Assembly (NCBI GenBank): GCA_038062115.1
Contig: JBBTXS010000007.1
Coordinates: forward strand, 5,448 to 69,447
Direction of reading: 5' to 3'
Length of the DNA: 64,000 bases
From: Patescibacteria group bacterium
GTDB lineage: Bacteria > Patescibacteriota > Microgenomatia > Levybacterales > UBA12049
Part shown: positions 4,311 to 40,971 of the stretch, in pieces
Position numbering within the stretch: the first letter of the stretch is position 1
Layout of the letters: each line of letters begins with the position of its first letter
The notes under the pieces: model-generated
Seen by the model: the letters and a program-made list of their open reading frames with translations, nothing else
Databases searched by the model: none
What the model was told of the DNA's origin: nothing
Position numbers and translations under genes: made by a program

Positions 4311-4413
4311 TTGTCATTCCGAGTGCAGTGAAACGGAGTCGAGGAATCTCTCTCAACAGGCTCAGGTCAAACAGATCCCTCCACTCCGCTATCGCTACGG
4401 TCGGGATGACAAA
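4311..4413. repeat. TGTCAT...ATGACA hairpin repeat, copy in a divergent intergenic region
   Basis: TTGTCATTCCGAGTGCAGTGAAACGGAGTCGAGGAATCTC...GGTCGGGATGACAAA. Flanked by an 18-bp perfect IR at 4287-4304 / 4442-4459. Confidence 0.75.
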
Positions 4414-4515
4414 CCATGTAACTTATTGTGTCTCTTAAATAGGACATTTCTATTCTTGTCTGACAGTTCTATATTTAACATATCACACGTAATCAATATT
4501 TGCTACAATAGCTTT

Positions 4516-4932
4516 ATGGAAAGGCGAGAAAGCATAGAAACTTGGAATAAGAAAAAGATTTTTATAACTTTACTAATTGTTGTTGCAATAGTGGGATTTG
4601 GAGTAAAGACTTTTGTTTTAAGTAAGAATAAAGATTTTTTTAGTATGCATACGGTGCCAACTTTCTTGAAATCTGTTATGGGTGTAAATACGCAAAAAGA
4701 TAAGGAAAAAACTGCAAGCTCAACAAAAAAAACTACATCATCTTTGCCAATTCAGGCAGTTATTAAAGAGAAACTAGATGATTTAAAAAAAGAAGTAAAT
4801 AGCCTTAATGTTGTAGATATTGCCTCATCGTCTCCGCAGATTCAAAAAATAATTAACGACCTTAATTCACTTAGACAGTATCCAGTTAATGAAGCAAAAG
4901 ATATTTGTCAAAAGATTTGTGGCACGCTATGA
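4516..4932 (+). CDS. membrane-anchored hypothetical protein
   Basis: ORF track 4426..4932 starts at a non-ATG codon inside the repeat region. The first ATG is at 4516 (MERRESIETWNKKK + TM). Its stop overlaps the prfB start as ATGA. Confidence 0.5.
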   Translation: MERRESIETWNKKKIFITLLIVVAIVGFGVKTFVLSKNKDFFSMHTVPTFLKSVMGVNTQKDKEKTASSTKKTTSSLPIQAVIKEKLDDLKKEVNSLNVVDIASSSPQIQKIINDLNSLRQYPVNEAKDICQKICGTL

Positions 4933-5930
4933 ACGATATAAAAGAACAGGCTAAAAAGATTTTAGAAAAATTAAATATAGATAGCAAAGGGCAAAAAGTA
5001 AGGCAAATAGAGGCCGAGAGTGCACATCCTAATTTTTGGATTGATCATAAGATGGCTTCGGCAAAAATGAAGGAGTTAGCAAGTCTTCAGAAAGAAATAG
5101 AGGAGGCAGAATTATTGCAGGAATTTATTGGAAGTGGTCGCTATGATGAGGCTGAGGCGTTATTAAAAAAGCTTGAGATTTTACTTTATTTATCAGGCTA
5201 CTATGATAATAAAGACGCAATATTATCAATCCATGCAGGTCAAGGAGGGGTTGAGGCAATGGATTGGACCCAGATGCTATTTAGAATGTATATAAGGTAT
5301 TGTGAGAGAGAAGGGTTTAAATCTGAAATAATTGACGAAGCATTTGGGGAGGAAGCAGGATATAAAAGTGTTACCATAACGGTTGTGGGCAAATATGCTT
5401 ATGGATATTTAAAAGGCGAGGCAGGCGTGCATAGGCTCGTTCGCCAGTCGCCATTTAATGCTGATAATTTGCGCCAAACATCGTTTGCTTTAGTTGAAGT
5501 TTTGCCCCAGATTCAAGATAAGGAGGTAGAGTTAAAAGAAGACGATTTAGAATGGGATTTTTATAGAGCAAGTTCTCATGGGGGACAAAACGTACAGAAG
5601 GTTTCCTCAGCTGTTCGTCTAAAACATAAACCTACAGGTATTGTGATAACTGCTCAGTCAGAACGATATCAGGCTCAGAATCGCGAATATGCCCTGAAGA
5701 TTTTGCGAGGAAAACTTTGGACGCTTAAGGAAGAGGCAAGAAAAAAAGAGGAGCAAAAATTAAAAGGGGGATATAAAACCCCGGGCTGGGGAAATCAGAT
5801 CAGATCCTATGTTTTGCACCCATACCATATGGTAAAAGATTTGCGTACCAATTACGAGACGTCAAATACAGAGAAAGTTTTGGATGGAGAGCTGGATGGG
5901 TTTATAGAGGAAGAGCTAAGAAAATTGTGA
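4929..5930 (+). CDS. prfB: peptide chain release factor 2
   Basis: SPF tripeptide (RQSPFNAD) and GGQ motif (SSHGGQNVQK). The single uninterrupted ORF has no +1 frameshift site. Start 4929 gives an ATGA overlap with the upstream stop. Confidence 0.9.
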   Translation: MNDIKEQAKKILEKLNIDSKGQKVRQIEAESAHPNFWIDHKMASAKMKELASLQKEIEEAELLQEFIGSGRYDEAEALLKKLEILLYLSGYYDNKDAILSIHAGQGGVEAMDWTQMLFRMYIRYCEREGFKSEIIDEAFGEEAGYKSVTITVVGKYAYGYLKGEAGVHRLVRQSPFNADNLRQTSFALVEVLPQIQDKEVELKEDDLEWDFYRASSHGGQNVQKVSSAVRLKHKPTGIVITAQSERYQAQNREYALKILRGKLWTLKEEARKKEEQKLKGGYKTPGWGNQIRSYVLHPYHMVKDLRTNYETSNTEKVLDGELDGFIEEELRKL

Positions 5931-5978
5931 AATTAGTTATTGCGTCTGATGAGAAAAATTGCTAAAATGCAATAAGAT

Positions 5979-6245
5979 ATGCAAATTACAAGTACCATTT
6001 CGCTTCCCAAAAATTTAGCTCAAGAAGTAGAAAAGCAAGTAGAGAGAGGTAGATTTACCTCAAGCTCTGAGTTTGTCCGCTCTGCAATAAAAACGTATCT
6101 TCTTTTTCAAAAAGGAGAGCTTTCTTGGGAAATTCTGGCAGCTCCATTTAGGGCATACGCTAAACAAAAAAATTTGACGGAGAAAGATATATTAAGTATT
6201 GTTAAGAAAGGACATCATGCCAAAGCTTTCAAGGGTAGTAAGTGA
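5979..6245 (+). CDS. ribbon-helix-helix (CopG/ParD-like) antitoxin
   Basis: 88 aa. ISLPKNLAQEVEKQVERGRFTSSSEFVRSAIKTYL is a typical RHH pattern. Followed by a PIN fragment. Confidence 0.6.
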   Translation: MQITSTISLPKNLAQEVEKQVERGRFTSSSEFVRSAIKTYLLFQKGELSWEILAAPFRAYAKQKNLTEKDILSIVKKGHHAKAFKGSK

Positions 6246-6354: not shown

Positions 6355-6377
6355 CTATTCAGTTCTTACCAACGGAT

Positions 6378-6447
6378 TTGTCATTGCGAGCGTAGCGAAG
6401 CAATCTCATGAGATCGCCACGGCTACTTCGTAGCCTCGCGATGACAG
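6378..6447. repeat. TGTCAT...ATGACA hairpin repeat
   Basis: TTGTCATTGCGAGCGTAGCGAAGCAATCTCATGAGATCGCCACGGCTACTTCGTAGCCTCGCGATGACAG. Outer IR at 6357-6371 / 6453-6467. Confidence 0.75.
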
Positions 6448-6563
6448 CTTACTGGTAAAAACTGAATACTTACCCATTTTCTGCTTGACATAATGTACAT
6501 AATTCTGTAATATTTATCCAGGACCTTTCAAAACCCCGCAGAAAAAAGGTGCTGGATTTACCT

Positions 6564-6839
6564 ATGACGCATACATTACCTATCACAAAAGCAAGAGAAG
6601 AACTAACGAATTTAGTTGAAAATGCTAAAAAGCGACTAGATGAGTATGTTATTACTGTAAATGGAAGGCCTGCTGCAGTTCTTATCTCTGTTGCTGAATA
6701 TGAGTCATGGAAAGAAACCATGGAAATTATGGTAGATCCGGAGCTTTTGAAAGCAATAAAAGAAGGCGAAGAAGACATAAAAAAAGGTCGTTATATCACG
6801 CTTGATCAGCTCAAAAAAGAGCTCAAGTTAGATGTTTGA
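6564..6839 (+). CDS. Phd/YefM family antitoxin
   Basis: LPITKAREELTNLVENA...VITVNGRPAAVLISVAEYESWKET. Overlaps the downstream RelE gene by 8 nt. The ORF track start 6549 is GTG; the ATG is at 6564. Confidence 0.8.
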   Translation: MTHTLPITKAREELTNLVENAKKRLDEYVITVNGRPAAVLISVAEYESWKETMEIMVDPELLKAIKEGEEDIKKGRYITLDQLKKELKLDV

Positions 6840-7083
6840 AGTTCGCATTTCCTCGAAGGCAGAAAAACAGATAAAACAAATTAAAAAGTTGTATCAGACA
6901 GCTATCCTTTCTGCTTTAGAAGAACTAAGAGAGGATCCTTTTGCAGGTAAACCTTTATCCAAAGATCTAACCGGTAGATTTTCCTATAAAATAAGCGTAT
7001 ATAGAATTATTTATAAAGTTGATCAACGGGATAAAGTTGTTGACATTATATTTGCCGGACACAGATCAATTATTTATGAATAG
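6832..7083 (+). CDS. RelE/ParE family toxin
   Basis: 83 aa with YRIIYKVDQRDKVVDIIFAGHRS. Operon with the Phd antitoxin. Confidence 0.8.
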   Translation: MFEVRISSKAEKQIKQIKKLYQTAILSALEELREDPFAGKPLSKDLTGRFSYKISVYRIIYKVDQRDKVVDIIFAGHRSIIYE

Positions 7084-11490: not shown

Positions 11491-11546
11491 GTGTCATTCC
11501 CAGCTTGACTGGGAATCTAGATTCCCGCTTTCGCGGGAATGACGTG
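11491..11546. repeat. TGTCAT...ATGAC hairpin repeat (two-hairpin short form)
   Basis: GTGTCATTCCCAGCTTGACTGGGAATCTAGATTCCCGCTTTCGCGGGAATGACGTG. Outer IR at 11463-11487 / 11548-11568. Confidence 0.75.
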
Positions 11547-11574: not shown

Positions 11575-12102
11575 ATGAAAATCAAAAAAGAAATTTTTAT
11601 CACAGACAGTTTTGAGGAAACCCAAAGACTAGGGGAGAAATTTGCTAAAGATCTGAGGCTACACCTTCGAGGTGCAGCCTTAAATATTGCTTTATATGGA
11701 GATTTGGGAAGCGGGAAAACGACTTTTGTACAAGGTTTGGCAGAAGGATTTGGAATAACAAGAAGAATTATATCGCCAACATTTATTATTATTAGACAAT
11801 ATAAGCTCAGCTCTCAAATGTCAAATCTCGCGTCGTCGCCAAAGCGGCTATGGCGCGTCGGCGACAAATCCACGTCTCAAATATTAAAACTGTTTTATCA
11901 TATAGACTTATATAGAATAAAAAACGATGAAGGTATTGAAGAACTAGGAATAGAAGAGATTATAAAAGATTCGCAGAATATTGTAGCAATAGAATGGGCA
12001 GAAAAAATGGGAGATTTATTGCCGAAGGAAAGGTGGGATGTGAGATTTGAGTATGTGGGAGAAGATAAAAGGAGGATAACAATTAAAAATGGAAGAAATT
12101 AG
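11575..12102 (+). CDS. tsaE: tRNA t6A biosynthesis protein TsaE (carries a 21-aa in-frame insertion)
   Basis: GDLGSGKTTFVQG P-loop, SPTF, HIDLYR motifs. A GC-rich insert sits between them. Confidence 0.8.
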   Translation: MKIKKEIFITDSFEETQRLGEKFAKDLRLHLRGAALNIALYGDLGSGKTTFVQGLAEGFGITRRIISPTFIIIRQYKLSSQMSNLASSPKRLWRVGDKSTSQILKLFYHIDLYRIKNDEGIEELGIEEIIKDSQNIVAIEWAEKMGDLLPKERWDVRFEYVGEDKRRITIKNGRN

Positions 12103-12688
12103 AGAAGGTATAAAAGTATTAAAAGAAGGCGGGATTGTAATTTTCCCAACAGATACTGCATTTGGGATAGGATGCAGAATTGACGATGAGAAAGCAATTG
12201 AGCGTCTTTTTGAGATACGAAAAAGACCAAAGACTCAAGCGACACCAGTTTTGCTAAATTCAGTTGAAATGGCAAGAAAGTATCTTGAAAAAATTCCCAA
12301 AGATGCCGAAGAAAAACTTATGAAAAAATATTGGCCCGGAGCACTTACTATAATACTGCGCTGTAATATAGTGAAAGTGCCATCGCTTGTGAGGGGCGGA
12401 GAAGCAACTTTGGGGGTTCGAATTCCCAATCATCCAATAACTCTTGGCTTAATTAGAGGAGTGGGAGTGCCTCTTGTTGGTCCTTCGGCAAATTTTCATG
12501 GAGAACGAACACCGTACGAAGCTGGCGACTTAAATAAAAAACTTATAAAATTGGCTGATTATGTGGTTTGGGGAGACTGTACATTAAAACAACATTCAAC
12601 TGTAATTGATTGCTCGGAAAAACCCTGGAAAATAATTCGCCAAGGCGCAATAAAATTAAAGCTTCATCATTTGTCATCCTCGACCTGA
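12089..12688 (+). CDS. tsaC: L-threonylcarbamoyladenylate synthase (Sua5/YrdC/TsaC)
   Basis: FPTDTAFGIGC, LGVRIPNH, GPSANFHG motifs. The last 7 codons and the stop lie inside a hairpin repeat. Confidence 0.8.
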   Translation: MEEIREGIKVLKEGGIVIFPTDTAFGIGCRIDDEKAIERLFEIRKRPKTQATPVLLNSVEMARKYLEKIPKDAEEKLMKKYWPGALTIILRCNIVKVPSLVRGGEATLGVRIPNHPITLGLIRGVGVPLVGPSANFHGERTPYEAGDLNKKLIKLADYVVWGDCTLKQHSTVIDCSEKPWKIIRQGAIKLKLHHLSSST

Positions 12689-12725
12689 TCGAGGATCTAG
12701 ATTCCCGCTTTCGCGGGAATGACAC
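12671..12725. repeat. TGTCAT...ATGACA hairpin repeat (short form) bridging tsaC and tsaB
   Basis: TTGTCATCCTCGACCTGATCGAGGATCTAGATTCCCGCTTTCGCGGGAATGACAC. The right half is identical to copy 11491..11546. Confidence 0.75.
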
Positions 12726-12733
12726 AGGAGTCT

Positions 12734-23935: not shown

Positions 23936-24342
23936 TATTTCTAAAAGTATGCTACTACATAGTGACATACTTTAGCAAAATATTTATAGATACAAATATG
24001 AGTTTAGCTTTAAAAGACGACTCAGTATCAAAAAGTCGCTGTAGATAGTAGCGATGAGGAGAATACAGGAATAGAAAAATTACCAAAAGCAAGAAAACGC
24101 AAACAATAGTTAAATGATCAAATCATTGAACCATACTCCGCGTCATTCTGAGGATTCGCCAGATGACGGATCGCTTGCAATGGCAAATTTAAGCCTAAAG
24201 TACAGCGCTATGTAGTAATGGACTTTAGCGTAAATCCAAAGCTTCTGCAACCTCATTACATCAATCTGCTATAGCATGTTATTGTACAGACAGAAAACAA
24301 AAGAATTTAGGCTTTCTTCTCGTGTTATAATTACCTAAAGAT

Positions 24343-29461: not shown

Positions 29462-29532
29462 TGTCATGCCGAATTTATTTCGGCATCTAGTTCCTGAAAA
29501 GAGGAGATGCTGAAACAAGTTCAGCATGACAA
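29462..29532. repeat. TGTCAT...ATGACA hairpin repeat between secD and secF
   Basis: TGTCATGCCGAATTTATTTCGGCATCTAG...GGAGATGCTGAAACAAGTTCAGCATGACAA. Starts right at the secD stop. Confidence 0.75.
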
Positions 29533-29544
29533 CGAAGGACGATT

Positions 29545-30450: not shown

Positions 30451-30536
30451 TGTCATCCTAAACTTTTTTGCAGGATCTTGTTTCAGGATATTATCTGTCG
30501 AAAAAGGAGATGCTGAAATAAATTCAGCATGACAAA
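30451..30536. repeat. TGTCAT...ATGACA hairpin repeat after secF
   Basis: TGTCATCCTAAACTTTTTTGCAGGATC...GGAGATGCTGAAATAAATTCAGCATGACAAA. The right half is nearly identical to copy 29462..29532. Confidence 0.75.
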
Positions 30537-31254: not shown

Positions 31255-31258
31255 GCAT

Positions 31259-32395: not shown

Positions 32396-33312
32396 AATCT
32401 TGTTTTATCAGCTATATATAAAAAATAATCTTCAAGAGTTGGCTTCTCAATACTTATTTCATCGTAATAAATTTTTTTACTCGTTAAATCTCGTAAAAAT
32501 TCAGGGATATTTTTTTCTTTTACATCAACAATTAAGTATCGGCCTTGAATTTTAAATGAGAAATTTTTTTCTTTGCAAAGCTCAATTATGTTTTTGAATC
32601 CATCGCTGATTAAGAGTTCTATATGGGACGTCTTAATCGATTTAGCAAGATTTTTTGGTATGTCATCTGCAATAATTTCTCCCTTGTTGATAAATATGAC
32701 TCTATCGCATACTTCCTCAACCTCGGCCATATTGTGAGAAGTAAGGATAATAGAGACTTTAAATTCTTTCTGTTGGTTTAACAAGAAATCACGGATATAG
32801 CGTGCTATATCTGGGTCTAGTGATGCAGTTGGTTCATCTAAAAGCAAAATTTTTGGAAAGTTAAGGAACGCTTTTGCTAAGTTGACTCTAGTAAGCTGTC
32901 CTGATGAAAGCTCATGAATTTGTTTGTTTATAAGCTCGCTAAGTCTAAATATTTCTTCAATCTTTCGTAACCTTGATCTTCGATCATTAATTATATATAG
33001 GTAAGACATGTAAGTTAAAACTTCTCTAACGGTTAAGTTCCATGGGAAATTAGTATAGCTAGAAGAAAAGTTTACCTGCTCAAGAATCTCTTCGCGATTT
33101 TCAGTTAGTTTTTTATCAAAATATTTTATATCGCCCGATGTCGGCGTTAGGACTCCGAGCAGCATTTGAATTGTCGTAGTTTTTCCGGCACCGTTTGGGC
33201 CTAAAAGACCAAGAATCTCTCCTTCTTTTAGAGAAAAAGAAATGTTATCAACTGCTGTGAATTCGCCGAATTTTTTGGTGAGATTTTTTACTTCTAAAAT
33301 TTGATTACTCAT
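32392..33312 (-). CDS. ABC transporter ATP-binding protein
   Basis: GPNGAGKTT, LSSGQLTR, LLLDEPTASLD. The real start is MSNQILEV at 33312. The ORF track extension to 33345 reads into a half hairpin repeat. Confidence 0.85.
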   Translation of the reverse strand: MSNQILEVKNLTKKFGEFTAVDNISFSLKEGEILGLLGPNGAGKTTTIQMLLGVLTPTSGDIKYFDKKLTENREEILEQVNFSSSYTNFPWNLTVREVLTYMSYLYIINDRRSRLRKIEEIFRLSELINKQIHELSSGQLTRVNLAKAFLNFPKILLLDEPTASLDPDIARYIRDFLLNQQKEFKVSIILTSHNMAEVEEVCDRVIFINKGEIIADDIPKNLAKSIKTSHIELLISDGFKNIIELCKEKNFSFKIQGRYLIVDVKEKNIPEFLRDLTSKKIYYDEISIEKPTLEDYFLYIADKTRL

Positions 33313-33313
33313 T

Positions 33314-33347
33314 TTGTCGTTGCGAGGAACGAAGTGACGAAGCAATC
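33314..33347. repeat. half copy of the hairpin repeat
   Basis: TTGTCGTTGCGAGGAACGAAGTGACGAAGCAATC, similar to the left half of copy 34798..34879. Confidence 0.55.
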
Positions 33348-33350
33348 TTT

Positions 33351-33768
33351 TTACTTGATTAGATTTATGTGCAAATCATTAAATGACGAATTATCTTTTC
33401 TAATAAGCTCAAGCTTCTTTATTCGTGAACCCGCTTTAATTTGTTTTTCTCTTCGTATAGCTTCATATATTGTATCAAATATTTCAAGATATACTAGCTT
33501 AGTTACATTATGACTGGGTCATAATTGTCATTTCGAGCTTGCCGAGAAATCTCCTTCAAAGAGATTCCTCGACTCGCTACACTCGCTCGGAATGACAAAT
33601 GAGTATTTATGTCCCAGTCACAGTTACATTATAGCGTGAAGTAAAACTAGATACCATTTTGTCTTTATGTTCGTACATGCGTCTTATTAGATTATTAGTG
33701 ACGCCTGTATATAAGACAGTATTTGTAAAATTCGTAGCAATATACACAAAATATTTTCTTGTATACAT
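33351..33768 (-). pseudogene. GIY-YIG nuclease (UPF0213-like) gene split by a 111-bp MITE
   Basis: The N-part MYTRKYFVYIATNFTNTVLYTGVTNNLIRRMYEHK...SRYNVT ends in the insert. The C-part KLVYLEIFDTIYEAIRREKQIKAGSRIKKLELI...HINLIK* (own translation, stop 33351-33353) resumes in a frame shifted by 1. Removing 121 bp restores one 98-aa ORF. Confidence 0.75.
33511..33621. mobile_element. MITE copy with TIRs and 10-bp target-site duplication
   Basis: TSD AGTTACATTA at 33501-33510 and 33622-33631. TIR TGACTGGGTCATAA (33511-33524) versus TTATGTCCCAGTCA (33607-33620), 13/14 complementary. The core is TTGTCATTTCGAGC...GGAATGACAAA. Confidence 0.8.
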
Positions 33769-33785
33769 TTTTATTGTTTCTTTAA

Positions 33786-33817
33786 GATTGCTTCGCTTCG
33801 GAGCTCGCAATGACAAA
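33786..33817. repeat. half copy of the hairpin repeat
   Basis: GATTGCTTCGCTTCGGAGCTCGCAATGACAAA. This is the right-half type. Confidence 0.55.
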
Positions 33818-33821
33818 TGGA

Positions 33822-35270
33822 TTAAGATATAATTTCTTTTATTCTCTCAAGCAAATACTCCTTATTATTTTTGGATAAATCTTCATCAACCTCTTCAAAA
33901 AGTTTTTGTAAAATTTCGCCAACTTTTGGTCCAGGTTTGATATTTAGCTCTTTCATAATATCGTTTCCATCAACTGAAAGGTCGTTGATAGAAAAAGGCG
34001 CTGGCTTTAATTGCTCTTCTATTCTTTTTTTGAAAAGTTTTAGTCTCCAACTTTCGGCAGTTTGAGTTCCTCCTCCTAGCCTATCGCCAATTCTTAAATC
34101 CATCATGTCTTTTACGCTCGTAATCCCTACTCTTCGAATAAATCTTCTAACTGCCGCATCTGTTATTTTTTCATCCACAGTAAACATATGCCAGCGTATA
34201 AGATTAACTATTTTATCGCGGTCTTTTCTTGAGAATCTTAGTCTATTGCATATTTCACCCACCATGTGCGCTCCTACAATTTCGTGGTTATGAAATATCA
34301 CAAGGCCCTTTTCATCCTTTTTTTCAACCTTTGGTTTCCCAACATCATGAAGAAGAGTCGCGAATCTAACGATTGGATCAACTGATGGGCAGAATTTTAA
34401 AGAAAGGATGTTATGCATGAAGACGTCAGATGTATGGTGTCTGCCGGGACGAACTTGCGAAACCCCAATTCCTTCCAAAAGTTCTGGCAGAATGTATTGT
34501 AAAAGAGAAGAGTTTTTTAGAAGCATTATTCCGTCGTATGGATGCTTGCTTGCTAAGATTCTTAATAGCTCAATTCTTACTCTTTCTCCGGAAATTTCTC
34601 TGATAAGCTGAGCATCGGAAATAATTTCTTCCCAAGTTTTGTTCTCGATAGTAAAACCGTGTTCGGTTGCAATTCTTATTGCCCGAATAAGCCTTAATGC
34701 GTCTTCTTTGAATCTTTGTTTTGGATCTCCAACGGAGCGAATAATTTTGTCTTTAATATCTTGCTGACCGCCAAAAGGATCAACAATAATACTTTTATTG
34801 TCATTGCGAGGAACCCGCTGAGCGGGTGACGAAGCAATCCCATCCTTCGGAGATTGCTTTGCTTTGCTCGCAATGACAGAGGCTGTATATTCAATTTTTA
34901 GTGCTATGGCGTTGACAGTAAAGTCGCGGCGAGATAGATCTTCTTCGATAGATTTTCCCCACTTAACGATCTTAGGATGTCTTCTATCAAAGTATTCGTG
35001 CTCGGTTCTAAACGTTGTAACTTCGACAGTATGCTTTTTTCCAAATAGCTCTACTGGAATGCCAACAGTTCCAAATTTGTTGTCATAAAACCCATTAGGA
35101 AAAAGATTTAGTATTTGTTCCGGAGTTGCATTTGTTGTAAAGTCCCAATCTTTAATCTCCTTTTCCATCAAAAGATTTCGGACACAACCACCAACAAAAT
35201 AAACTTCAAAACCAGCATCTTGGAATTTGTTATAAATTTCTAAAATTTCCTTTGGAATATGTTCAGTCAT
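33822..35270 (-). CDS. cca: CCA-adding enzyme / tRNA nucleotidyltransferase with HD domain
   Basis: GGCVRNLL, DWDFTT, RRDFTVNA, LLHDVGKP motifs. Contains one in-frame repeat insertion. Confidence 0.85.
   Translation of the reverse strand: MTEHIPKEILEIYNKFQDAGFEVYFVGGCVRNLLMEKEIKDWDFTTNATPEQILNLFPNGFYDNKFGTVGIPVELFGKKHTVEVTTFRTEHEYFDRRHPKIVKWGKSIEEDLSRRDFTVNAIALKIEYTASVIASKAKQSPKDGIASSPAQRVPRNDNKSIIVDPFGGQQDIKDKIIRSVGDPKQRFKEDALRLIRAIRIATEHGFTIENKTWEEIISDAQLIREISGERVRIELLRILASKHPYDGIMLLKNSSLLQYILPELLEGIGVSQVRPGRHHTSDVFMHNILSLKFCPSVDPIVRFATLLHDVGKPKVEKKDEKGLVIFHNHEIVGAHMVGEICNRLRFSRKDRDKIVNLIRWHMFTVDEKITDAAVRRFIRRVGITSVKDMMDLRIGDRLGGGTQTAESWRLKLFKKRIEEQLKPAPFSINDLSVDGNDIMKELNIKPGPKVGEILQKLFEEVDEDLSKNNKEYLLERIKEIIS
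34798..34879. repeat. hairpin repeat inserted in frame inside cca
   Basis: TTGTCATTGCGAGGAACCCGCTGAGCGGGTGACGAAGCAATCCCATCCTTCGGAGATTGCTTTGCTTTGCTCGCAATGACAG. Read as ...SVIASKAKQSPKDGIASSPAQRVPRND... on the minus strand. Confidence 0.75.
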
Positions 35271-35350: not shown

Positions 35351-37120
35351 ATGAAGGGGTGGAAAATCATTAGTGAATCGGGAATAAAGAATCAGGAATC
35401 AGGCATTAAGGACTTGATAGAAATTTTATTAAGCAATAGAGGGCTAAAGACAAAAAAGGAAATAGAAGAGTTTTTAAATCCTAAATTGGAAAATGTAACA
35501 ATTAAGAATGTTGGGATCGATAAAAGACAACTTCGGAAAACAATTGGGAGAATTCAAAAATCCATAAAAAATAAAGAGAAAATTGTTGTTTTTGGCGACT
35601 ATGATGTGGATGGGATTTGCGGATCAGCAATTCTTTGGGAAACTCTTAATGGTTTGGGAGCAAGTGTTATGCCGTATATACCGCATAGGATGGATGAAGG
35701 ATACGGGCTTTCTATGAAAGCAATTCAAAATTCAGAATTCAGAATTCAGAATATCAAATTGATTATAACAGTAGATAATGGAATTGTTGCAAATGAGGCG
35801 GTTAAATATGCTAAAGATCAAGGTATTGATGTTATTATTACCGATCACCATGTTCCATCTAAGAAACTTCCCGATGCTTTTGCTATAGTTCACACGACAA
35901 AACTTTGTGGAGCAGGAGTTGCTTGGGTTCTCTCTTCTGTCATTCTGAATTCATTTCAGAATCTCAATATTTTGGAGAACAAGACCCTGAAACAAGTTCA
36001 GGGTAACAATAATAAAAATAATCTTTTAGAATTGGTAGCACTTGCTACGATTGCAGATCTTGTTTCTCTTTTGGGAGCAAATAGAATACTTGTTAAGTTT
36101 GGACTTGAAGCCCTCCGAAGAACAAAAAGGGTTGGTCTTTTGGAGCTATTAAAAGAAGCAGTATTGGAAAAAGATAAAATTGGAGTTTATGAAATAGGAC
36201 ATATAATTGCGCCAAGATTAAATGCAATGGGGCGATTAGAGTATGCAATGGATAGTTTAAGGTTATTATGTACAAAAAACAGAGACAGAGCAAGAATGTT
36301 GGCTCAAACTTTAGGAAGTACAAATAGGGAGCGACAGGCACGGACATTAACTACTGTTAAGCATGCAAAATCAGCAATTCAGAATTCAGAATTCAGAATT
36401 CAGAATTTATTGTTTGTTGCACACGAGAGTTATCAACAAGGGGTTATTGGGCTAGTTGCTGGGAAATTGGTAGAAGAATATTATCGACCTACAATTGTAG
36501 TTTCAAAAGGAGAGATTTACAGCAAGGCATCAGCTAGATCAATTAACGGTTTTAATATTATTGAATTTATACGAAGTGCATCTGAATATTTAGTGGATGC
36601 TGGGGGCCATCCAATGGCTGCTGGTTTTACAGTTGAAACTTCTAAACTTGCTTTAGTTCAGAAAACTCTCGAGAATAAAGCAGAGTCTTTACTTGACGAG
36701 GAAAAATTGACAAGAACTCTTAGGATTGACTGTGAGCTAGATTTATCATTAGTAAACAATAAGTTATATGACGCAATTCAAAAACTTGCACCTTTTGGAA
36801 TGGGGAATCCTGAACCAACGTTTGTTGGTAGAGGCGTTGAGATTCAAGATATAAGAACTGTTGGAAGAGAAGCAAAGCATTTAAAGCTGCAATTAGTGTG
36901 TCATCCTGAGGCTTTAGCCAAAGGATCTCATGAGATTCTTCGCTTCGCTCAGAATGACAAGGGAATGATTGATGGGATTGCGTTTGGGATGGGAGAGAAG
37001 TATTCTCAATTTCATGTTGGGGATGCGGTTGATATAGCTTATACGGTTGATGAAAATAAGTGGAATGGAAATAAAAAGTTGCAGTTAAAGATAAAGGATT
37101 TAAAGCTATCGAGGTCTTGA
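35351..37120 (+). CDS. recJ: single-stranded-DNA-specific exonuclease RecJ
   Basis: FGDYDVDGICG, IITVDNG, ITDHH, GGHPMAAG motifs. Four repeat-derived in-frame insertions. Confidence 0.85.
   Translation: MKGWKIISESGIKNQESGIKDLIEILLSNRGLKTKKEIEEFLNPKLENVTIKNVGIDKRQLRKTIGRIQKSIKNKEKIVVFGDYDVDGICGSAILWETLNGLGASVMPYIPHRMDEGYGLSMKAIQNSEFRIQNIKLIITVDNGIVANEAVKYAKDQGIDVIITDHHVPSKKLPDAFAIVHTTKLCGAGVAWVLSSVILNSFQNLNILENKTLKQVQGNNNKNNLLELVALATIADLVSLLGANRILVKFGLEALRRTKRVGLLELLKEAVLEKDKIGVYEIGHIIAPRLNAMGRLEYAMDSLRLLCTKNRDRARMLAQTLGSTNRERQARTLTTVKHAKSAIQNSEFRIQNLLFVAHESYQQGVIGLVAGKLVEEYYRPTIVVSKGEIYSKASARSINGFNIIEFIRSASEYLVDAGGHPMAAGFTVETSKLALVQKTLENKAESLLDEEKLTRTLRIDCELDLSLVNNKLYDAIQKLAPFGMGNPEPTFVGRGVEIQDIRTVGREAKHLKLQLVCHPEALAKGSHEILRFAQNDKGMIDGIAFGMGEKYSQFHVGDAVDIAYTVDENKWNGNKKLQLKIKDLKLSRS
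35722..35752. repeat. tandem AATTCAG heptamer array (about 4.4 units) inside recJ
   Basis: aattcaaaattcagaattcagaattcagaat, encoding AIQNSEFRIQN. Confidence 0.8.
35938..36009. repeat. hairpin repeat inserted in frame inside recJ (72 nt)
   Basis: TGTCATTCTGAATTCATTTCAGAATC...CCCTGAAACAAGTTCAGGGTAACAA, encoding VILNSFQNLNILENKTLKQVQGNN. Confidence 0.7.
36376..36407. repeat. second tandem AATTCAG heptamer array (about 4.5 units) inside recJ
   Basis: aattcagaattcagaattcagaattcagaatt, again encoding AIQNSEFRIQN. Confidence 0.8.
36899..36960. repeat. hairpin repeat inserted in frame inside recJ
   Basis: TGTCATCCTGAGGCTTTAGCCAAAGGATCTCATGAGATTCTTCGCTTCGCTCAGAATGACAA, encoding CHPEALAKGSHEILRFAQNDK. 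Confidence 0.7.
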
Positions 37121-38875: not shown

Positions 38876-39794
38876 GCCGGTGGAAGCAAAAGGCATACTT
38901 CAACACGCAGTACTACCGATTTATGCTATTGTTTTATTTGTAATTCTTGTTATAGATATTAGTGTACAGCAATATAATTACTCTAATAAAATAATTCCAT
39001 CGCCAATTTACCCTGAGGTTTCGTATTATCCAATTCTAACGGAGAGTTTAAAACCAAATATTTCTGCAAAAGCAGCAATTGTTATGGATAATGACTCGAA
39101 AGTTATATTATTTGCTAAAAATCCAAAATTGTTGTTTTCTATGGCGTCCACTACAAAAATAATGACAGCATTAGTTGCTATGGATTACTATAGTTTGGAC
39201 GACGTATTAACTGTAAAAACAACAGGAGCCGGCGGAATAACAATAGGTCTTAAAAAAGGACAAAGAATATTATTTAAAGACTTATTGCATGCAATGCTTC
39301 TGCCTTCAAGCAATGACGCAGCTTTAACTTTGGCTCAAAATTATAGTGGCGGCGAAAAAGCATTTATAAATAAAATGAACGAATATGCGAGACTTTTACA
39401 CCTTTTTAATACTAGCTTTGCTGATCCTGCCGGTTTACTAGATGGAGAGGATTATACAACGCCTCTAGATCTAGCAAGACTGGCATCAATTGCTTTAAAA
39501 AACAAAATGTTTGCTCAAATAGTTGCTACAAAACATAAAATAATTTCTGACGTTGACGGATTTAATTATTCCATTTTTAATTTAAATAAGTTGTTGGGAA
39601 TAGATGGAATAAATGGAGTAAAAACTGGATTTACAGATGAAGCAGGAGAAGTTTTGGTTACATCAAAAAAGACTCGTGATGGACATATGCTTATTGCTGT
39701 TGTTATGAACAGTGAAGATAGATTTTTGGATACAAAAATACTGTTAAATTATGTTTCGGGAAATATTAAGTATTTAGACACACACAATTTTTAA
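38826..39794 (+). CDS. D-alanyl-D-alanine carboxypeptidase (peptidase S11)
   Basis: SxxK (SMASTTK), SxN (PSSND) and KTG (VKTGFT) motifs. ATG 38826 overlaps the aspS 3' end. Confidence 0.75.
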   Translation: MKDFQKLIKKAKRLLHKPVEAKGILQHAVLPIYAIVLFVILVIDISVQQYNYSNKIIPSPIYPEVSYYPILTESLKPNISAKAAIVMDNDSKVILFAKNPKLLFSMASTTKIMTALVAMDYYSLDDVLTVKTTGAGGITIGLKKGQRILFKDLLHAMLLPSSNDAALTLAQNYSGGEKAFINKMNEYARLLHLFNTSFADPAGLLDGEDYTTPLDLARLASIALKNKMFAQIVATKHKIISDVDGFNYSIFNLNKLLGIDGINGVKTGFTDEAGEVLVTSKKTRDGHMLIAVVMNSEDRFLDTKILLNYVSGNIKYLDTHNF

Positions 39795-39816
39795 TTTCTT
39801 GTAACTTCAATGGGAA

Positions 39817-40872
39817 TTATCTCCCATCTTCATTTACCCATTCCTCTTTAACCGCAGAAATATATGCAAAAAAATCGTTATCTCCTTCAAAAATAATTAT
39901 TGGCATTAGATATTTTTGCTCTTCTTTTCCTAAATAGTAGGCAAGAGCCATATTTTTTATAGCAACATTTATGTCTTTTCCAGCAAAGGAAGAAATATAT
40001 GCTTTTCCCTGTTTTAATTCCAAAAAAGCGTTGGATGCAGACTTAATTGGATATGTGGCAGATTCATTTGATATATTTTTGTAAGAATATAAAGCCTCAA
40101 CAACTTGAGGGTTATCCTGTCCTCCAGAAATTAGTAAATTAATGGTTGATGATATAGGCTTAGGATAATATATGGGCAGTTTATCTATGTTGTTCTGAAA
40201 AAAATCAACCCTTATTATTTGTGCTTTAGAAATACTGGTTGAAGGTATAATTGTATAGTTTTTAATTGTATGATAGCTCGTTTTTGTTTTTGTAGTGTTA
40301 ATGTCGTTTGGAAAAGACGACAGACTCTCAAGGAACGTTTTGGCAATATTTATAGCCTCACTCTCGTTTGGAAGATTTATGCCTGATTGAATTGTTGGAT
40401 CTGTAACAAATGACGAAGAGAATGTAAAATCAGAAGATAGGATATTAAATGCTATTTTTCTAAGTAGTGTAGTTCTGTCTATCCACTGATAAGTGTTTTC
40501 CGAAATAAGAGACTTTTGAGTGCCAAAACCAAGCTTAGAAACTTTGTCTTGAGCCTTTTCTAGAGAAAGAAAATCTGCTCTGTTGGGAGTAATTTTGTAT
40601 ATTTTTGCCCTATCTGGAAATATAGGGAGAGTCCCAGAAATTGTGTCGAGTGTATACTTTAATACTTTATCGGTTGCATTTGTTGGAAATTTAAGCGCTT
40701 CAAGTTTGCCAAAAGACACAGTTGGCGGAGGGGGTGGGGTTGGATAAAATTTTTCCTTAATTACAGGCCCAATTTTTGCAACTATAAAAACAATAAGCAG
40801 TGTTGATATTATGATAGAGCCCCATTTAATTATAAATTTTGTTTCTGAGGTAACTTTACTTAGAGTTGCCAT
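39817..40872 (-). CDS. membrane-anchored hypothetical protein
   Basis: ORF track 351 aa. N-terminal TM followed by PPPPP. Confidence 0.5.
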   Translation of the reverse strand: MATLSKVTSETKFIIKWGSIIISTLLIVFIVAKIGPVIKEKFYPTPPPPPTVSFGKLEALKFPTNATDKVLKYTLDTISGTLPIFPDRAKIYKITPNRADFLSLEKAQDKVSKLGFGTQKSLISENTYQWIDRTTLLRKIAFNILSSDFTFSSSFVTDPTIQSGINLPNESEAINIAKTFLESLSSFPNDINTTKTKTSYHTIKNYTIIPSTSISKAQIIRVDFFQNNIDKLPIYYPKPISSTINLLISGGQDNPQVVEALYSYKNISNESATYPIKSASNAFLELKQGKAYISSFAGKDINVAIKNMALAYYLGKEEQKYLMPIIIFEGDNDFFAYISAVKEEWVNEDGR

Positions 40873-40886
40873 AACTTAAATACTAA

Positions 40887-40971
40887 TTTGTCATTCCGAG
40901 CGAGCCAAGTCTGACTTGGCGAGTCGAGGAATCTCTTTGCAGGGGATTTCTCGACAAGCTCGAAATGACAA
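40887..40971. repeat. hairpin repeat, close relative of the 33511..33621 MITE core
   Basis: TTTGTCATTCCGAGCGAGCCAAGTCTGACTTGGCGAGTCGAGGAATCTCTTTGCAGGGGATTTCTCGACAAGCTCGAAATGACAA. Also shares flanking AAATACT.A and ATTAT with the 33.5-kb copy. Confidence 0.8.

What the first reader, a model, noticed from the sequence alone, without database searches (positions are those of the whole stretch)
4311..40971. Pervasive family of TGTCAT...ATGACA multi-hairpin repeats (at least 13 copies in 64 kb)
**Full or short copies:** 4311-4413, 6378-6447, 11491-11546, 12671-12725, 29462-29532, 30451-30536, 33511-33621, 34798-34879, 35938-36009, 36899-36960 and 40887-40971.

**Half copies:** 33314-33347 and 33786-33817.

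**Related GC-rich palindromes:** 25322-25421, plus a degenerate one near 24139-24170.

**Shared architecture:** (T)TGTCAT(T/C)(C/G)... hairpin 1, a spacer (often GAGGAATCTC or CTAG), hairpin 2, then ...(A/G)ATGACA(A). Sub-modules are exchanged between copies. For example, ATTCCCGCTTTCGCGGGAATGAC is shared by 11.5 kb and 12.7 kb, GGAGATGCTGAAA.AA.TTCAGCATGACAA by 29.5 kb and 30.5 kb, and nearly the whole core by 33.5 kb and 40.9 kb.

The copies sit at gene ends, between operon genes and inside ORFs. The density is far above what I would expect for a small streamlined genome. This suggests a REP/BIME- or MITE-like system with consequences for transcription termination, mRNA stability and annotation.
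Basis: seen in the sequence. Interest (0 to 1): 0.6.

Follow-up and report, generated by a model that had tools for sequence, protein, structure and literature searches.

The report
Hairpin repeats of a GIY-YIG nuclease
The TGTCAT...ATGACA repeats are real and are the already described "CGTC-tagged REP / Ssn-related motif" hairpins, the DNA partners of a small single-strand-specific GIY-YIG nuclease (Ssn) whose broken gene lies in this window, seen here for the first time in a candidate-phyla-radiation bacterium with direct evidence that they were gained by insertion.

Summary
**Observation:** confirmed. The window (a Levybacteria/CPR groundwater contig) holds 24 hairpin half-units, 22 canonical and 2 with mutated tags. 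All sit in 12 inverted pairs with the tags outward. Shuffles give about 1.5 half-units and 0 pairs.

**Anatomy:** each half-unit is (T/C)GTC-A-T[variable stem]...loop...[stem']A-T-C.

**Identity:** these are the CGTC/TGTC-tagged REPs of Di Nocera 2013 (Neisseria dRS3, Rickettsia RPE-4/-6). Chenal 2025 calls them Ssn-related motifs. Two half-units match the Neisseria NTS consensus 28/28.

**Partner gene:** Its GIY-YIG gene is 46% identical to gonococcal SsnA. It is split by a nested 110-nt copy with an 11-bp target duplication. An intact empty site exists in a related metagenome contig.

**Gain and loss:**
- The closest syntenic relative has none of the seven pairs in its 21 kb.
- Three pairs sit in frame inside recJ and the CCA-adding enzyme.
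- recJ orthologues carry independent insertions at three sites.

**Partner enzyme:** it is Ssn, not a RAYT transposase.

**Verdict:** a new member of a known kind, of moderate interest. The mobility evidence is the new part. The role of Ssn in mobilisation is inferred.

The parts
4312..4411 (.). SRM pair. Half-units 4313-4348 (+) and 4374-4410 (-), stems TTCC/GGAA and TCCC/GGGA with long GAG...CGA interiors. It lies in the loop of an outer inverted repeat (4281-4309 / 4437-4465). That repeat is flanked by a roughly 17-nt direct repeat GTTCTATA(A)TTTAACAT (4265 / 4466). The site is between divergent genes.
   Evidence: I14; z -3.97
6379..6446 (.). SRM pair. Half-units 6380-6405 (+) with stem TTGC/GCAA and 6412-6445 (-) with stem TCGC/GCGA. 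It sits in the loop of an outer 16-bp inverted repeat, TATTCAGTTCTTACCA / TGGTAAAAACTGAATA. It lies downstream of a ribbon-helix-helix gene.
   Evidence: (z -4.05)
11492..11544 (.). SRM pair upstream of tsaE. Half-unit 11520-11543 (-) is CGTCATTCCCGCGAAAGCGGGAATCTAG, a 28/28 match to the Neisseria NTS consensus. The pair is enclosed by the outer inverted repeat AGCTCATTTCAAAAC / GTTTTGAAATAGCT and a TCTAG direct repeat. It is absent at the orthologous site of L079.
   Evidence: (z -6.63)
12672..12724 (.). SRM pair at the Sua5/TsaB junction. Its right half is identical to the NTS-like unit at 11.5 kb. The loop of its left half supplies Sua5's stop codon (TGA 12686-12688). Several relatives have Sua5 and TsaB fused into one ORF.
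   Evidence: D11; z -6.22
24141..24168 (.). Probable internally deleted pair, CGTCATTCTGAGG..CCAGATGACG. It is extra sequence relative to L064. The assignment is uncertain.
29462..29531 (.). SRM pair in the secD-secF spacer, with 7-bp stems TGCCGAA and TGCTGAA (8 bp if the flanking A-T pair is counted) and 5-nt loops. Relatives L064, L067 and L068 carry a different palindromic element at this spot.
   Evidence: D7, D8; z -5.80
30451..30534 (.). SRM pair just after the secF stop codon. It is absent in L064 and L067, and L068 has only a short remnant.
   Evidence: (z -3.20)
33314..33347 (+). Left SRM of the SRM-ssn-SRM unit. Its tag has mutated to GTCG and its stem is TTGC/GCAA. It abuts the ssn stop codon and the start codon of the ABC ATPase gene.
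33351..33768 (-). ssn pseudogene, encoding a GIY-YIG Ssn-family protein of 98 aa once the nested insertion is removed. Residues equivalent to SsnA Y6, Y17 and E64 are kept (Y9, Y20, E67). It is 46% identical to N. gonorrhoeae SsnA and 96% identical to the intact P0001.
33512..33621 (.). Nested 110-nt insertion that splits ssn. It consists of the outer inverted repeat GACTGGG.CATAA plus the SRM pair 33526-33597. It is flanked by the 11-bp target duplication AGTTACATTAT (33501-33511 and 33622-33632). Its core is 95% identical to the 40.9-kb copy.
   Evidence: I2, I6; empty site in L004; z -6.78
33786..33816 (-). Right SRM of the SRM-ssn-SRM unit, stem TTGC/GCAA. It lies 17 nt upstream of the ssn start codon. 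In L004 its loop is 9 nt longer.
34799..34878 (.). SRM pair in frame inside the CCA-adding enzyme gene (33822-35270, minus strand). It encodes ...SVIASKAKQSPKDGIASSPAQRVPRNDNKS... and interrupts the PolyA_pol head domain after model position 107. It is present in L004 with 6- and 9-nt indels, and absent in L064 and L068.
   Evidence: (z -8.29)
35938..36008 (.). SRM pair in frame inside recJ (35351-37120, plus strand). It encodes VILNSFQNLNILENKTLKQVQGNN. The tag of its right half has mutated to GTTA. L064 is 54 nt shorter at this site.
   Evidence: (z -3.80)
36899..36959 (.). SRM pair in frame inside the recJ OB domain. It encodes CHPEALAKGSHEILRFAQNDK and splits the RecJ_OB Pfam match at residue 516. 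L064 has only a 26-nt hairpin at this site.
   Evidence: (z -1.93)
40889..40970 (.). SRM pair between divergent genes, upstream of gltX. It is the closest relative of the nested copy at 33.5 kb and shares extra flanks with it (ATAAT / AATKAGTATTTAWGT).
   Evidence: I2, I6; z -6.89

Best explanation
**What the repeats are.** They are inverted pairs of Ssn-related motifs (SRMs), also called CGTC/TGTC-tagged REPs. Each half is a DNA hairpin with three parts:
- an unpaired 5' (T/C)GTC tag;
- a stem that always opens A-T, T-A and otherwise co-varies;
- a 3' C tail.

In every pair the tags point outward.

**The parent unit.** The parent form is the SRM-ssn-SRM unit at 33314-33816. Its spacer encodes a 98-aa single-domain GIY-YIG nuclease of the Ssn family. 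The short pairs are the same ends without the gene, which makes them non-autonomous, MITE-like derivatives.

**Proposed mechanism (inferred from the Neisseria enzyme).** When the DNA is single-stranded, during replication, repair or DNA uptake, each half folds. Ssn binds the hairpin and nicks a few nucleotides 5' of the tag. For a tag-outward pair, that places a nick just outside each end, on opposite strands.

**Mobility.** The pairs, often wrapped in a further outer inverted repeat, have been gained by insertion in this lineage. One case has an 11-bp target duplication. Copies that land in genes survive only where they stay in frame and free of stop codons, adding 18-28 residues to loops of recJ and the CCA-adding enzyme.

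**What is shown here.**
- Family identity.
- The ssn gene and its flanking SRMs.
- Insertion polymorphism and target duplication.
- In-frame persistence.

**What is inferred.**
- That the Levybacteria Ssn cuts these hairpins (likely, about 0.7).
- That Ssn nicking is what mobilises them (about 0.3-0.4).
For: **1. Sequence family.**
- The 22 canonical half-units share GTCA-T...A-TC. Stems vary in a complementary way: TTGC/GCAA, TTCC/GGAA, TCCC/GGGA, TCGC/GCGA, TTTC/GAAA, TCCT/AGGA, TGCTGAA/TTCAGCA and others.
- Enrichment is 25 against 1.5 for half-units and 10 against 0 for pairs.

**2. Match to the known motif.**
- Half-units 11520-11543 and 12700-12723 match the published SRM search pattern; the former also matches the Neisseria NTS consensus CGTCATTCCCGCGMAVGCGGGAATCYRG at 28 of 28 positions, and the latter differs from it only at the first tag base (T for C) (motif from PMC11893778).
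- The invariant positions here are GTC before the stem and C after it. Chenal et al. found these same positions critical for SsnA cleavage and binding.

**3. The protein.**
- Removing the nested insertion restores a 98-aa ORF.
- It hits Pfam GIY-YIG at 3.9e-15.
- It has about 8000 homologues of about 97 aa.
- tblastn against a N. gonorrhoeae chromosome gives one hit at 2e-19. That hit is a 94-aa ORF embedded in 9 NTS copies within 3.3 kb.
- Pairwise identity is 46%, E 1e-29.
- Y9, Y20 and E67 align with the mutated catalytic residues Y6, Y17 and E64.

**4. Architecture repeated elsewhere.** Tag-outward SRMs flank ssn homologues in L027, L059 and L044, and in L071, L072 and L074 from the viral collection; a fourth viral-collection locus, L070, has a pair upstream only.

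**5. Gain by insertion.**
- L004 has the intact ssn and the empty site. The window has +110 nt and an 11-bp duplication.
- L044 against L059: a 119-nt multi-hairpin insertion with a 9-bp duplication, again inside ssn.
- The closest syntenic relative, L064, has no canonical half-unit in 20.9 kb. The window has 7 pairs over the same span.
- L079 lacks the 11.5-kb pair.
- Most of 60 Levybacteria loci have none.

**6. In-frame copies.**
- recJ and the CCA-adding enzyme ORFs stay open through the pairs.
- L004's CCA-gene copy differs by 6- and 9-nt indels.
- recJ orthologues have independent insertions at three sites, and most are empty.

**7. Prior description.** Di Nocera 2013 describes TGTC variants, A-T/T-A stem openings, predominant inverted dimers and in-frame intragenic dimers of 20-30 aa, often in replication and repair genes.
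Against: - The only ssn copy visible here is a pseudogene. Whether the genome has an intact copy is unknown.
- Only 2 of 24 half-units satisfy the published SRM search pattern. Most have a short 4-5 bp outer stem followed by G.A/A.G mismatches and 11-30-nt interiors. No Ssn has been tested on such hairpins.
- Chenal et al. showed that changing the Neisseria stem sequence while keeping the structure abolishes SsnA activity. One enzyme may therefore not serve all the stem variants seen here.
- No experiment links Ssn to mobility. The published function is restriction of incoming single-stranded DNA.
- Clear target duplications were found only for composite units that carry extra outer inverted repeats. 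Their lengths differ: 11 and 9 bp with empty sites, and possibly 5 and about 17 bp without clean empty sites.
- Bare pairs show no recognisable duplication.
- The CDD family cd10448 could not be checked with the tools available.
Confidence: 0.8

Rival explanations
1. The pairs, or the larger units that enclose them in an outer inverted repeat, are ordinary MITEs moved in trans by a conventional DDE-type transposase encoded elsewhere in the genome. On this view Ssn is not the mobilising enzyme. It only uses the hairpins as recognition sites, for example to restrict incoming single-stranded DNA as in Neisseria.
For: - Target duplications of 9 and 11 bp are typical of cut-and-paste transposases.
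- The units with duplications have terminal inverted repeats outside the SRM pair: GACTGGG.CATAA at 33512-33621 and AGCTCATTTCAAAAC at 11.5 kb.
- A nuclease with a single active site and no known strand-transfer activity is an unlikely transposase (established knowledge of GIY-YIG enzymes).
Against: - No transposase domain was found in the window.
- The outer inverted repeats differ between copies, so no single terminal sequence is shared.
- The L044 insertion has no terminal inverted repeat at all.
- Duplication lengths vary.
- The only gene consistently bracketed by these ends, in eight independent loci, is ssn.
Confidence: 0.15
2. This is a RAYT-driven REP/REPIN system. The hairpins would be recognised and moved by an IS200/IS605-like Y1 (HUH) transposase.
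For: - The general resemblance is real: short tagged hairpins, inverted dimers, and intergenic plus occasional intragenic positions (PMC3733652).
- Only 64 kb of the genome is visible, so a RAYT gene elsewhere cannot be excluded.
Against: - The tag is (T/C)GTC, not GTAG.
- Di Nocera et al. found no Y1 transposase flanked by CGTC repeats in any species.
- No Y1_Tnp domain appears in the window's ORFs.
- The bracketed gene is a GIY-YIG nuclease.
Confidence: 0.02
3. The hairpins are host-selected RNA or DNA structural signals (terminators, mRNA stabilisers or processing sites) kept at gene boundaries, rather than selfish elements.
For: - Eight of 12 pairs sit at gene ends or between operon genes, for example secD-secF and the tsaE-sua5-tsaB cluster.
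- The folds are strong.
- The ATGACA tag resembles a -35 box facing outward.
Against: - No T tract follows the hairpins. Terminator-like and promoter-like counts are at shuffle level.
- Three pairs lie inside ORFs.
- Orthologous sites in the nearest relatives are empty or hold unrelated palindromes.
- One copy destroys a gene.
Confidence: 0.03

Closest known systems
Ssn-related motifs (SRM / Neisseria NTS, an extension of dRS3) with the GIY-YIG single-strand nuclease SsnA (Chenal et al. 2025, PMC11893778)
   Same: - The same tag-hairpin-tail anatomy.
- One half-unit matches the NTS consensus at all 28 positions, and a second differs only at the first tag base.
- The same invariant GTC and C positions.
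- A homologous 98-aa single-domain GIY-YIG gene (46% identical to gonococcal SsnA) bracketed by the motifs.
- High copy density, about 0.4 half-units per kb.
   Different: - The host is a Levybacteria (CPR) genome, a group not mentioned in that paper.
- Here every motif is in a tag-outward inverted pair, whereas Neisseria has large clusters.
- Most hairpins have long interiors that the published search pattern misses (22 of 24).
- A quarter of the pairs are intragenic, against 2% of NTS in N. meningitidis.
- The local ssn is a pseudogene.
- Insertion with target duplication is seen here, whereas mobility was only hypothesised there.
CGTC-tagged REP super-family (Di Nocera, De Gregorio, Rocco 2013, PMC3733652), including Rickettsia conorii RPE-4 and RPE-6
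   Same: - A CGTC tag that is often changed to TGTC.
- Stems that open A-T, T-A.
- 4-5-nt loops in the short class.
- Predominantly inverted dimers, mostly heterodimers.
- In-frame intragenic dimers encoding 20-30 aa, often in replication and repair genes (here recJ).
   Different: - That paper found no associated enzyme, whereas ssn is present here.
- Its stems are 8-9 bp with tails near CCA. Here many stems are 5 bp plus G.A mismatches with long interiors, and tails are CTC, CTA or CCC.
- The phylum differs.
- Direct sequence comparison with RPE consensus sequences was not done.
REP/BIME and REPIN elements with RAYT transposases
   Same: - Short tagged hairpins in inverted dimers.
- A single associated gene flanked by the repeats.
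- Recognition is presumed to occur in single-stranded DNA.
   Different: - The tag is different (GTAG).
- The enzyme class is different (HUH Y1 transposase rather than GIY-YIG nuclease).
- No RAYT gene is found in this window.
Bacterial MITEs (Correia, ERIC, Nezha and others)
   Same: - Small non-coding palindromic units.
- Presence/absence polymorphism.
- Target duplication in at least two events.
- Occasional in-frame insertion.
   Different: - No shared terminal inverted repeat derived from an insertion sequence.
- No transposase.
- The duplication length is variable.
- The core is made of two independently variable hairpin modules.

Membership tests
Ssn / SRM system (Chenal 2025) | Hairpin motif matching the NTS consensus or the degenerate SRM search pattern HGTCWYN(0-2)YYVSBRHN(0-5)WNVSBRGN(0-2)RNCYNB | tested here: inconclusive
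   - 2 of 24 half-units match the SRM pattern, against 0.08 expected; one of them also matches the NTS consensus at all 28 positions, and the other differs only at the first tag base.
- The other 22 fail only because their loops or interiors are longer, or their perfect stems shorter, than the pattern allows.
Ssn / SRM system (Chenal 2025) | Conserved GTC immediately 5' of the palindrome and C immediately 3' (the positions critical for SsnA cleavage and binding) | tested here: met
   - All 22 canonical half-units read GTC-A-T...A-T-C.
- The only exceptions are the two decayed copies, with tags GTCG and GTTA (criterion).
Ssn / SRM system (Chenal 2025) | A single-domain GIY-YIG protein of about 94 aa homologous to Neisseria SsnA (the paper's criterion: tblastn E < 1e-10) | tested here: met
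   - The reconstructed 98-aa ORF gives tblastn 2e-19 against the N. gonorrhoeae chromosome, with a single hit.
- That hit is a 94-aa ORF among 9 NTS copies.
- BLASTP gives 46% identity, E 1e-29.
- The ORF is interrupted in the window itself.
Ssn / SRM system (Chenal 2025) | Catalytic residues equivalent to SsnA Y6, Y17 and E64 | tested here: met
   Y9, Y20 and E67 align with them and are invariant in the 10-sequence alignment A4.
Ssn / SRM system (Chenal 2025) | SRMs on both sides of the ssn gene | tested here: met
   - In the window, 33314-33347 (+) and 33786-33816 (-) flank the gene.
- The same arrangement occurs in L027, L059, L044, L071, L072 and L074.
Ssn / SRM system (Chenal 2025) | [quoted passage not shown] | not testable with these tools
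   - No CDD library is available.
- Pfam gives only the generic GIY-YIG domain.
- NCBIfam has no specific model.
- The hit to UPF0213 structures is weak (E 0.002), which argues against the YhbQ-type family.
Ssn / SRM system (Chenal 2025) | Site-specific cleavage of single-stranded DNA only, a few nucleotides 5' of the hairpin | not testable with these tools
   This needs the purified protein and oligonucleotide substrates.
CGTC-tagged REP super-family (Di Nocera 2013) | Unpaired terminal CGTC (or TGTC/CCTC) tag, and a stem opening with complementary A-T and T-A | tested here: met
   21 half-units carry TGTC and 1 carries CGTC, and each is followed by A-T ... A-T.
CGTC-tagged REP super-family (Di Nocera 2013) | Stem of 8-9 bp, loop of 4-5 nt, 3-nt tail near CCA | tested here: inconclusive
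   - About 9 half-units have 8-bp stems (counting the A-T pair) and 4-5-nt loops.
- The rest have 5-bp stems plus G.A/A.G mismatches and 11-30-nt interiors.
- Tails are C followed by TC, TA or CC.
CGTC-tagged REP super-family (Di Nocera 2013) | Predominantly inverted dimers; in-frame intragenic dimers | tested here: met
   - 12 of 12 are inverted pairs.
- 3 are intragenic and in frame.
- I could not verify from the text held whether my tag-outward orientation is that paper's 'HH'.
RAYT-associated REP / REPIN | GTAG tag and a flanked Y1 (HUH) transposase gene | tested here: not met
   - The tag is GTC(A).
- No Y1_Tnp domain was found in any scanned ORF or precomputed list.
- The rest of the genome was not visible.
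Classical MITE | Terminal inverted repeats shared with a parent insertion sequence, a fixed-length target duplication, and a transposase in trans | tested here: not met
   - The outer repeats differ between copies.
- Duplications are 11 and 9 bp (possibly 5 and about 17 bp), and none is seen for bare pairs.
- No transposase was found.
Rickettsia palindromic elements (RPE) | Palindromic repeats inserted in frame in functional genes; sequence match to an RPE consensus | not tested
   - In-frame insertion is met.
- The equation RPE-4/-6 = CGTC-4/-1 is taken from PMC3733652.
- No Rickettsia sequence was compared here.
Intrinsic terminators | GC-rich hairpin followed by a T tract on the coding strand of the upstream gene | tested here: not met
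   - Three half-units are flagged, only on the opposite strand and with weak tails.
- Counts are 10 against 7.1 and 4 against 5.5 in shuffles.

The most novel reading that the evidence does not exclude
SRM pairs would be genuine transposable elements whose mobilising enzyme is the tiny GIY-YIG single-strand nuclease Ssn. On this reading:
- Nicks 5' of the two outward tags release or prime copying of the unit.
- Insertion occurs at staggered breaks and leaves 9-11-bp duplications.
- The ssn gene itself is a preferred target. Two independent insertions lie within about 15 nt of the same codons in the window and in L044.

This would make Ssn the founder of a new class of single-strand-DNA mobile element. 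It would also explain the origin of the long-orphan CGTC REPs, RPE-4/-6 and dRS3.
Probability: 0.25. Interest if true: 0.7.

Novelty: new member of a known kind. Interest (0 to 1): 0.38.

Why it matters
**Annotation.**
- The family explains odd peptides such as VILNSFQNL, CHPE...RFAQNDK and VIASKAKQS inside essential CPR proteins.
- It explains a split ssn gene and a stop codon supplied to Sua5. It also accounts for spurious TTG-start ORFs such as 32392-33345 and 40916-42256.
- The published SRM search pattern would miss more than 90% of the copies here. Censuses based on it therefore undercount the family.

**Biology.**
- The window extends the Ssn/SRM system to streamlined CPR bacteria, which are thought to depend on DNA uptake. 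That is my own background knowledge and was not tested here.
- It supplies something the two key papers lacked: filled and empty orthologous sites with target duplications. These show that units built around SRM pairs insert into new places.
- This makes the open question of who moves CGTC REPs more directly testable.

Tried and rejected
- **Rfam:** at gathering thresholds only two tRNAs were found, and nothing at the repeats.
- **Published SRM pattern as sole detector:** it catches 2 of 24 half-units, so I wrote a tag + stem + tail scanner instead.
- **Metagenome and GTDB scans with RecJ for close relatives:** the best hits were 65-68% identical at protein level. That was too distant for intergenic empty sites, though useful for the recJ insertion map.
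- **Population polymorphism of the nested insertion:** the other Hainich assemblies that carry the identical CCA-adding enzyme have the same filled site.
- **Target duplications around bare pairs:** nothing longer than chance 6-7-mers at inconsistent distances.
- **Outer inverted repeats as copies of the target:** they are not present at the empty site in L004.
- **Phage carriage of ssn:** only 5 full-length hits in 2.9 million viral contigs.
- **Sua5 relatives:** none were closer than 76%. P0243's contig had no retrievable DNA.
- **A 2026 preprint that mentions Ssn and hairpins:** it could not be opened.
- **Covariance model:** I did not build one. Any alignment of half-units would have been selected by pairing, making covariation counts circular.

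Full report
**Source and context.** The window is 35.7% G+C. Its Lon protease is encoded identically on Hainich groundwater contigs from 0.1-µm filter fractions and on GCA_964361775.1. RecJ, SecF and Sua5 relatives are all Candidatus Levybacteria / Patescibacteria.

- The end-to-end pattern TGTCATYS...RATGACA occurs 8 times, against 0.01 in shuffles.
- Reading the copies in one orientation shows that each is two half-units in inverted orientation.
- A half-unit is (T)TGTCA, then a stem that always starts with T, then a loop or longer interior, then the complementary arm ending in A, then TC (usually TCTC).
- A scanner that asks only for GTCAT, a perfect stem of at least 4 bp, and ATC finds 25 half-units, against 1.53 ± 1.17 in 200 dinucleotide shuffles.
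- It finds 10 pairs with tags outward, against none in any shuffle.
- Three of the 25 are chance-level singletons (33362, 37949, 50840). Two further halves have mutated tags (33314 GTCG, 35982 GTTA).
- The result is 24 half-units in 12 pairs, with no solitary copy.

**Structure of the half-units.**
- Stems differ between copies but stay complementary: TTGC/GCAA, TTCC/GGAA, TCCC/GGGA, TCGC/GCGA, TTTC/GAAA, TCCT/AGGA, TTCT/AGAA, TGCCGAA/TTCGGCA, TGCTGAA/TTCAGCA, TTCCCGC/GCGGGAA and others.
- The tag and tail do not vary.
- As single-stranded DNA, 11 of the 12 sequences folded (the 11 short pairs plus the 110-nt nested unit) are far more stable than shuffles, with z from -3.2 to -8.3. They fold either as two hairpins or as one long hairpin. 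The pair at 36899 scores -1.9.
It follows from the pairs being mostly heterodimers of independently varying halves.

- The two "half copies" (33314-33347 and 33786-33817) face each other across about 440 nt.
- On the minus strand this interval starts with MYTRKYFVYIATNFTNTVLYTGVTNNLIRRMYEHK..., a GIY-YIG signature.
- The reading frame breaks at the full copy listed at 33511-33621.
- That copy is flanked by an 11-nt direct repeat, AGTTACATTAT (33501-33511 and 33622-33632). Removing 121 nt restores a 98-aa ORF.
- The ORF hits Pfam GIY-YIG at 3.9e-15.
- It has thousands of homologues of about 97 aa, the closest in Microgenomates.
- One homologue, P0001, is 96% identical. It lies on a 1.4-kb Logan contig (L004) next to the orthologous CCA-adding enzyme gene.
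- L004 has the uninterrupted gene. The two alignment blocks overlap by exactly the 11 nt that are duplicated in the window.
- The 33.5-kb copy is therefore a true insertion of 110 nt with an 11-bp target duplication, and it inactivated the gene.

**What the system is.** Two papers describe it.
- Di Nocera et al. 2013 (PMC3733652) defined "CGTC-tagged REPs". [quoted passage not shown] Their stems open with complementary A-T residues, loops are short, and they are mostly organised as inverted dimers.
- That paper found intragenic in-frame dimers of 20-30 aa, often in replication and repair genes.
- It equated the family with Neisseria dRS3 and Rickettsia RPE-4 and RPE-6. It found no dedicated transposase.
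- Chenal et al. 2025 (PMC11893778) extended dRS3 to the 28-nt NTS, CGTCATTCCCGCGMAVGCGGGAATCYRG, and generalised it to "Ssn-related motifs".
- They showed that the motifs bracket ssnA, a 94-aa single-domain GIY-YIG protein. SsnA binds the hairpin only as single-stranded DNA and cuts a few nucleotides 5' of it.
- The three bases before the palindrome matter most for cutting, and the C after it matters most for binding. Mobility of the NTS-ssnA-NTS unit was only hypothesised.

**Membership tests.**
- The half-unit at 11520-11543 matches the NTS consensus at 28/28; the one at 12700-12723 differs from it only at the first tag base (T for C). Only these two satisfy the degenerate SRM pattern, because the others have longer interiors.
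- The invariant bases here (GTC and C) are exactly the functionally critical ones.
- By luck, the plasmid collection contains gonococcal chromosomes. The reconstructed protein hits one place there at 2e-19.
- That place is a 94-aa ORF sitting among nine NTS copies in 3.3 kb.
- The two proteins are 46% identical (E 1e-29). The residues mutated by Chenal et al. (Y6, Y17, E64) are conserved.
- The same tag-outward SRM-ssn-SRM layout recurs in three other CPR loci (L027, L059/L044) and in three of five viral-collection loci; a fourth has a pair upstream only.
- I could not test the CDD assignment or the enzymology.

**Evidence that the pairs come and go.**
- The closest syntenic relative found is L064, with 72-93% nucleotide identity over window positions 20.3-40.9 kb.
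- L064 has no canonical half-unit, where the window has seven pairs.
- In L064 the pair after secF, the whole SRM-ssn-SRM unit, the CCA-gene copy and the first recJ copy are all absent.
- At the second recJ site L064 has only a 26-nt hairpin. In the secD-secF spacer it has an unrelated palindrome.
- L079 lacks the pair upstream of tsaE.
- Among about 60 Levybacteria loci, most have none and a few have several.
- A second filled/empty comparison came from L044 against L059, which are 97.8% identical.
- L044's ssn is split by a 119-nt multi-hairpin insertion that includes a decayed half-unit. It has a 9-bp duplication, AATAAACTA.
- That insertion lies 4-15 nt from the position homologous to the window's insertion. 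With two cases this coincidence is only suggestive.

**Copies inside genes.**
- The recJ ORF (589 aa) and the CCA-adding enzyme ORF (482 aa) read straight through three pairs.
- The Pfam matches are interrupted at the insertion points: RecJ_OB splits at residue 516, and the PolyA_pol head domain stops at residue 128.
- In a 19-sequence RecJ alignment, lineage-specific insertions occur at three sites. Each encodes tell-tale peptides such as VILNLFQD...LKQVQHD, VIPAKAGIQ or CHPE...RFAQNDK:
  - after about residue 135: L006, L013, L017;
  - after about residue 196: window, L008, L013, L017;
  - in the OB domain: window, L011, L013.
- Most orthologues are empty at all three sites.
- L004's CCA-gene copy differs from the window's by 6- and 9-nt indels, which preserve the frame.
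- This is the RPE-type behaviour already reported for this super-family.

**Layering.**
- Several pairs sit in the loop of a further, copy-specific inverted repeat: 4281-4309/4437-4465, 6356-6371/6453-6468, 11476-11489/11548-11561, and 33512-33524/33608-33620.
- For the 33.5-kb copy the outer repeat is absent from the empty site, so it arrived with the insertion.
- Possible direct repeats flank the 4.3-kb unit (about 17 nt) and the 11.5-kb unit (TCTAG). No clean empty sites are available for these.
- Bare pairs show no recognisable duplication.
- The variable duplication length and the copy-specific outer repeats do not fit a single classical transposase. They also do not demonstrate an Ssn-based mechanism.

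**Mechanism.**
- *Shown:* the family identity, the partner gene, gain by insertion, and in-frame survival.
- *Inferred from the Neisseria enzyme:* each half folds in single-stranded DNA, and Ssn binds it and nicks just 5' of the tag. With tags outward, the nicks fall immediately outside both ends of a pair, or of the ssn unit, on opposite strands. This geometry could release or prime copying of the unit.
- I rate cutting of these hairpins by the Levybacteria Ssn at about 0.7.
- I rate Ssn as the mobilising activity at 0.3-0.4.
- The main alternative is an unseen conventional transposase acting on the outer repeats.
- A role in restricting incoming single-stranded DNA, as in Neisseria, is possible and was not tested.
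- The pairs are not canonical terminators.

**Verdict.**
- The proposed partner (RAYT) is wrong.
- The kind is known, from the 2013 and 2025 papers. The CPR instance, the long-interior hairpin variants that escape the published pattern, and the filled/empty sites with target duplications are new details.

Noticed in passing
window 52259-52366, 58866-59060, 60511-60616 (genes 52834-60757): There are nested long inverted repeats. 52259-52366 is an inverted copy of 58866-58966. 58955-59060 is an inverted copy of 60511-60616 (106 nt, 98%). They bracket a C5 DNA methylase, Vsr, a LexA-like S24 protein, a reverse transcriptase (RVT_1) and a large serine recombinase, next to tRNA-Glu. This looks like an integrated or invertible element carrying defence-type genes.
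   Followed up: no
window 25322-25421: This GC-rich multi-hairpin has no GTCA tags, so it is not a member of the family. It is an insertion of about 89 nt relative to L068 and L069 (empty site TTTCACCC|CCCTTCAAT). In L064 it is present with a 26-nt internal deletion. It is a second, different mobile palindrome.
   Followed up: partly
L064 9912-10000, L067 3721-3809, L068 4938-5026 (orthologous to window 29462-29531): In the nearest relatives the secD-secF spacer holds an unrelated palindromic element (GCGTTTAG...CCGTCAGGTGACGG...CTAAACGC), exactly where the window has a TGTCAT pair. The same spacer has been colonised by different palindromes.
   Followed up: no
L044 9180-9298 versus L059 3579-3591: A second ssn gene is split by a 119-nt multi-hairpin insertion with a 9-bp duplication (AATAAACTA). 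The insertion point is within about 15 nt of the codons where the window's ssn is split. This may be an insertion hot spot in ssn, or it may be coincidence.
   Followed up: partly
window 35719-35752 and 36359-36406 (inside recJ): Runs of the heptanucleotide AATTCAG are translated as IQNSEFRIQN. RecJ orthologues have comparable SKFKVQ or NSKFEIRN runs at the same places and at the N-terminus. This is a recurrent low-complexity feature of these proteins.
   Followed up: no
window 12089-13018: Sua5 and a TsaB-like domain are one fused ORF in several relatives (P0243 at 295 aa, P0247 at 316 aa). In the window they are separate ORFs with the 12672-12724 pair at the junction. The pair supplies Sua5's stop codon. 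The TsaB-like ORF is only 99 aa.
   Followed up: partly
window 23944-23975 / 24195-24226; L064 13930-13965: Another palindrome family, CTAAAGTAT..CTACATAG..ATACTTTAG, occurs in the window and at the ABC/CCA-enzyme junction of L064, where the window instead has the SRM-ssn-SRM unit.
   Followed up: no
window 29526-29555, 12719-12747, 6441-6470, 4317-4290: The outward-facing ATGACA tag is a 5/6 match to the -35 hexamer TTGACA. In these places it lies 16-18 nt from a -10-like hexamer, so pairs could create outward hybrid promoters. Promoter-like counts are not above shuffle level.
   Followed up: partly
window 44146-44197 and 44286-45056: A perfect 26+26-nt palindrome with no spacer lies upstream of a 229-aa ORF. 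That ORF has a faint LAGLIDADG_3 hit and ends 7 nt before tRNA-Gln.
   Followed up: no
window 6549-7083 and 30997-31543: There are two Phd/YefM-type antitoxin loci. One is paired with ParE. One of them lies directly beside the 6379 pair.
   Followed up: no
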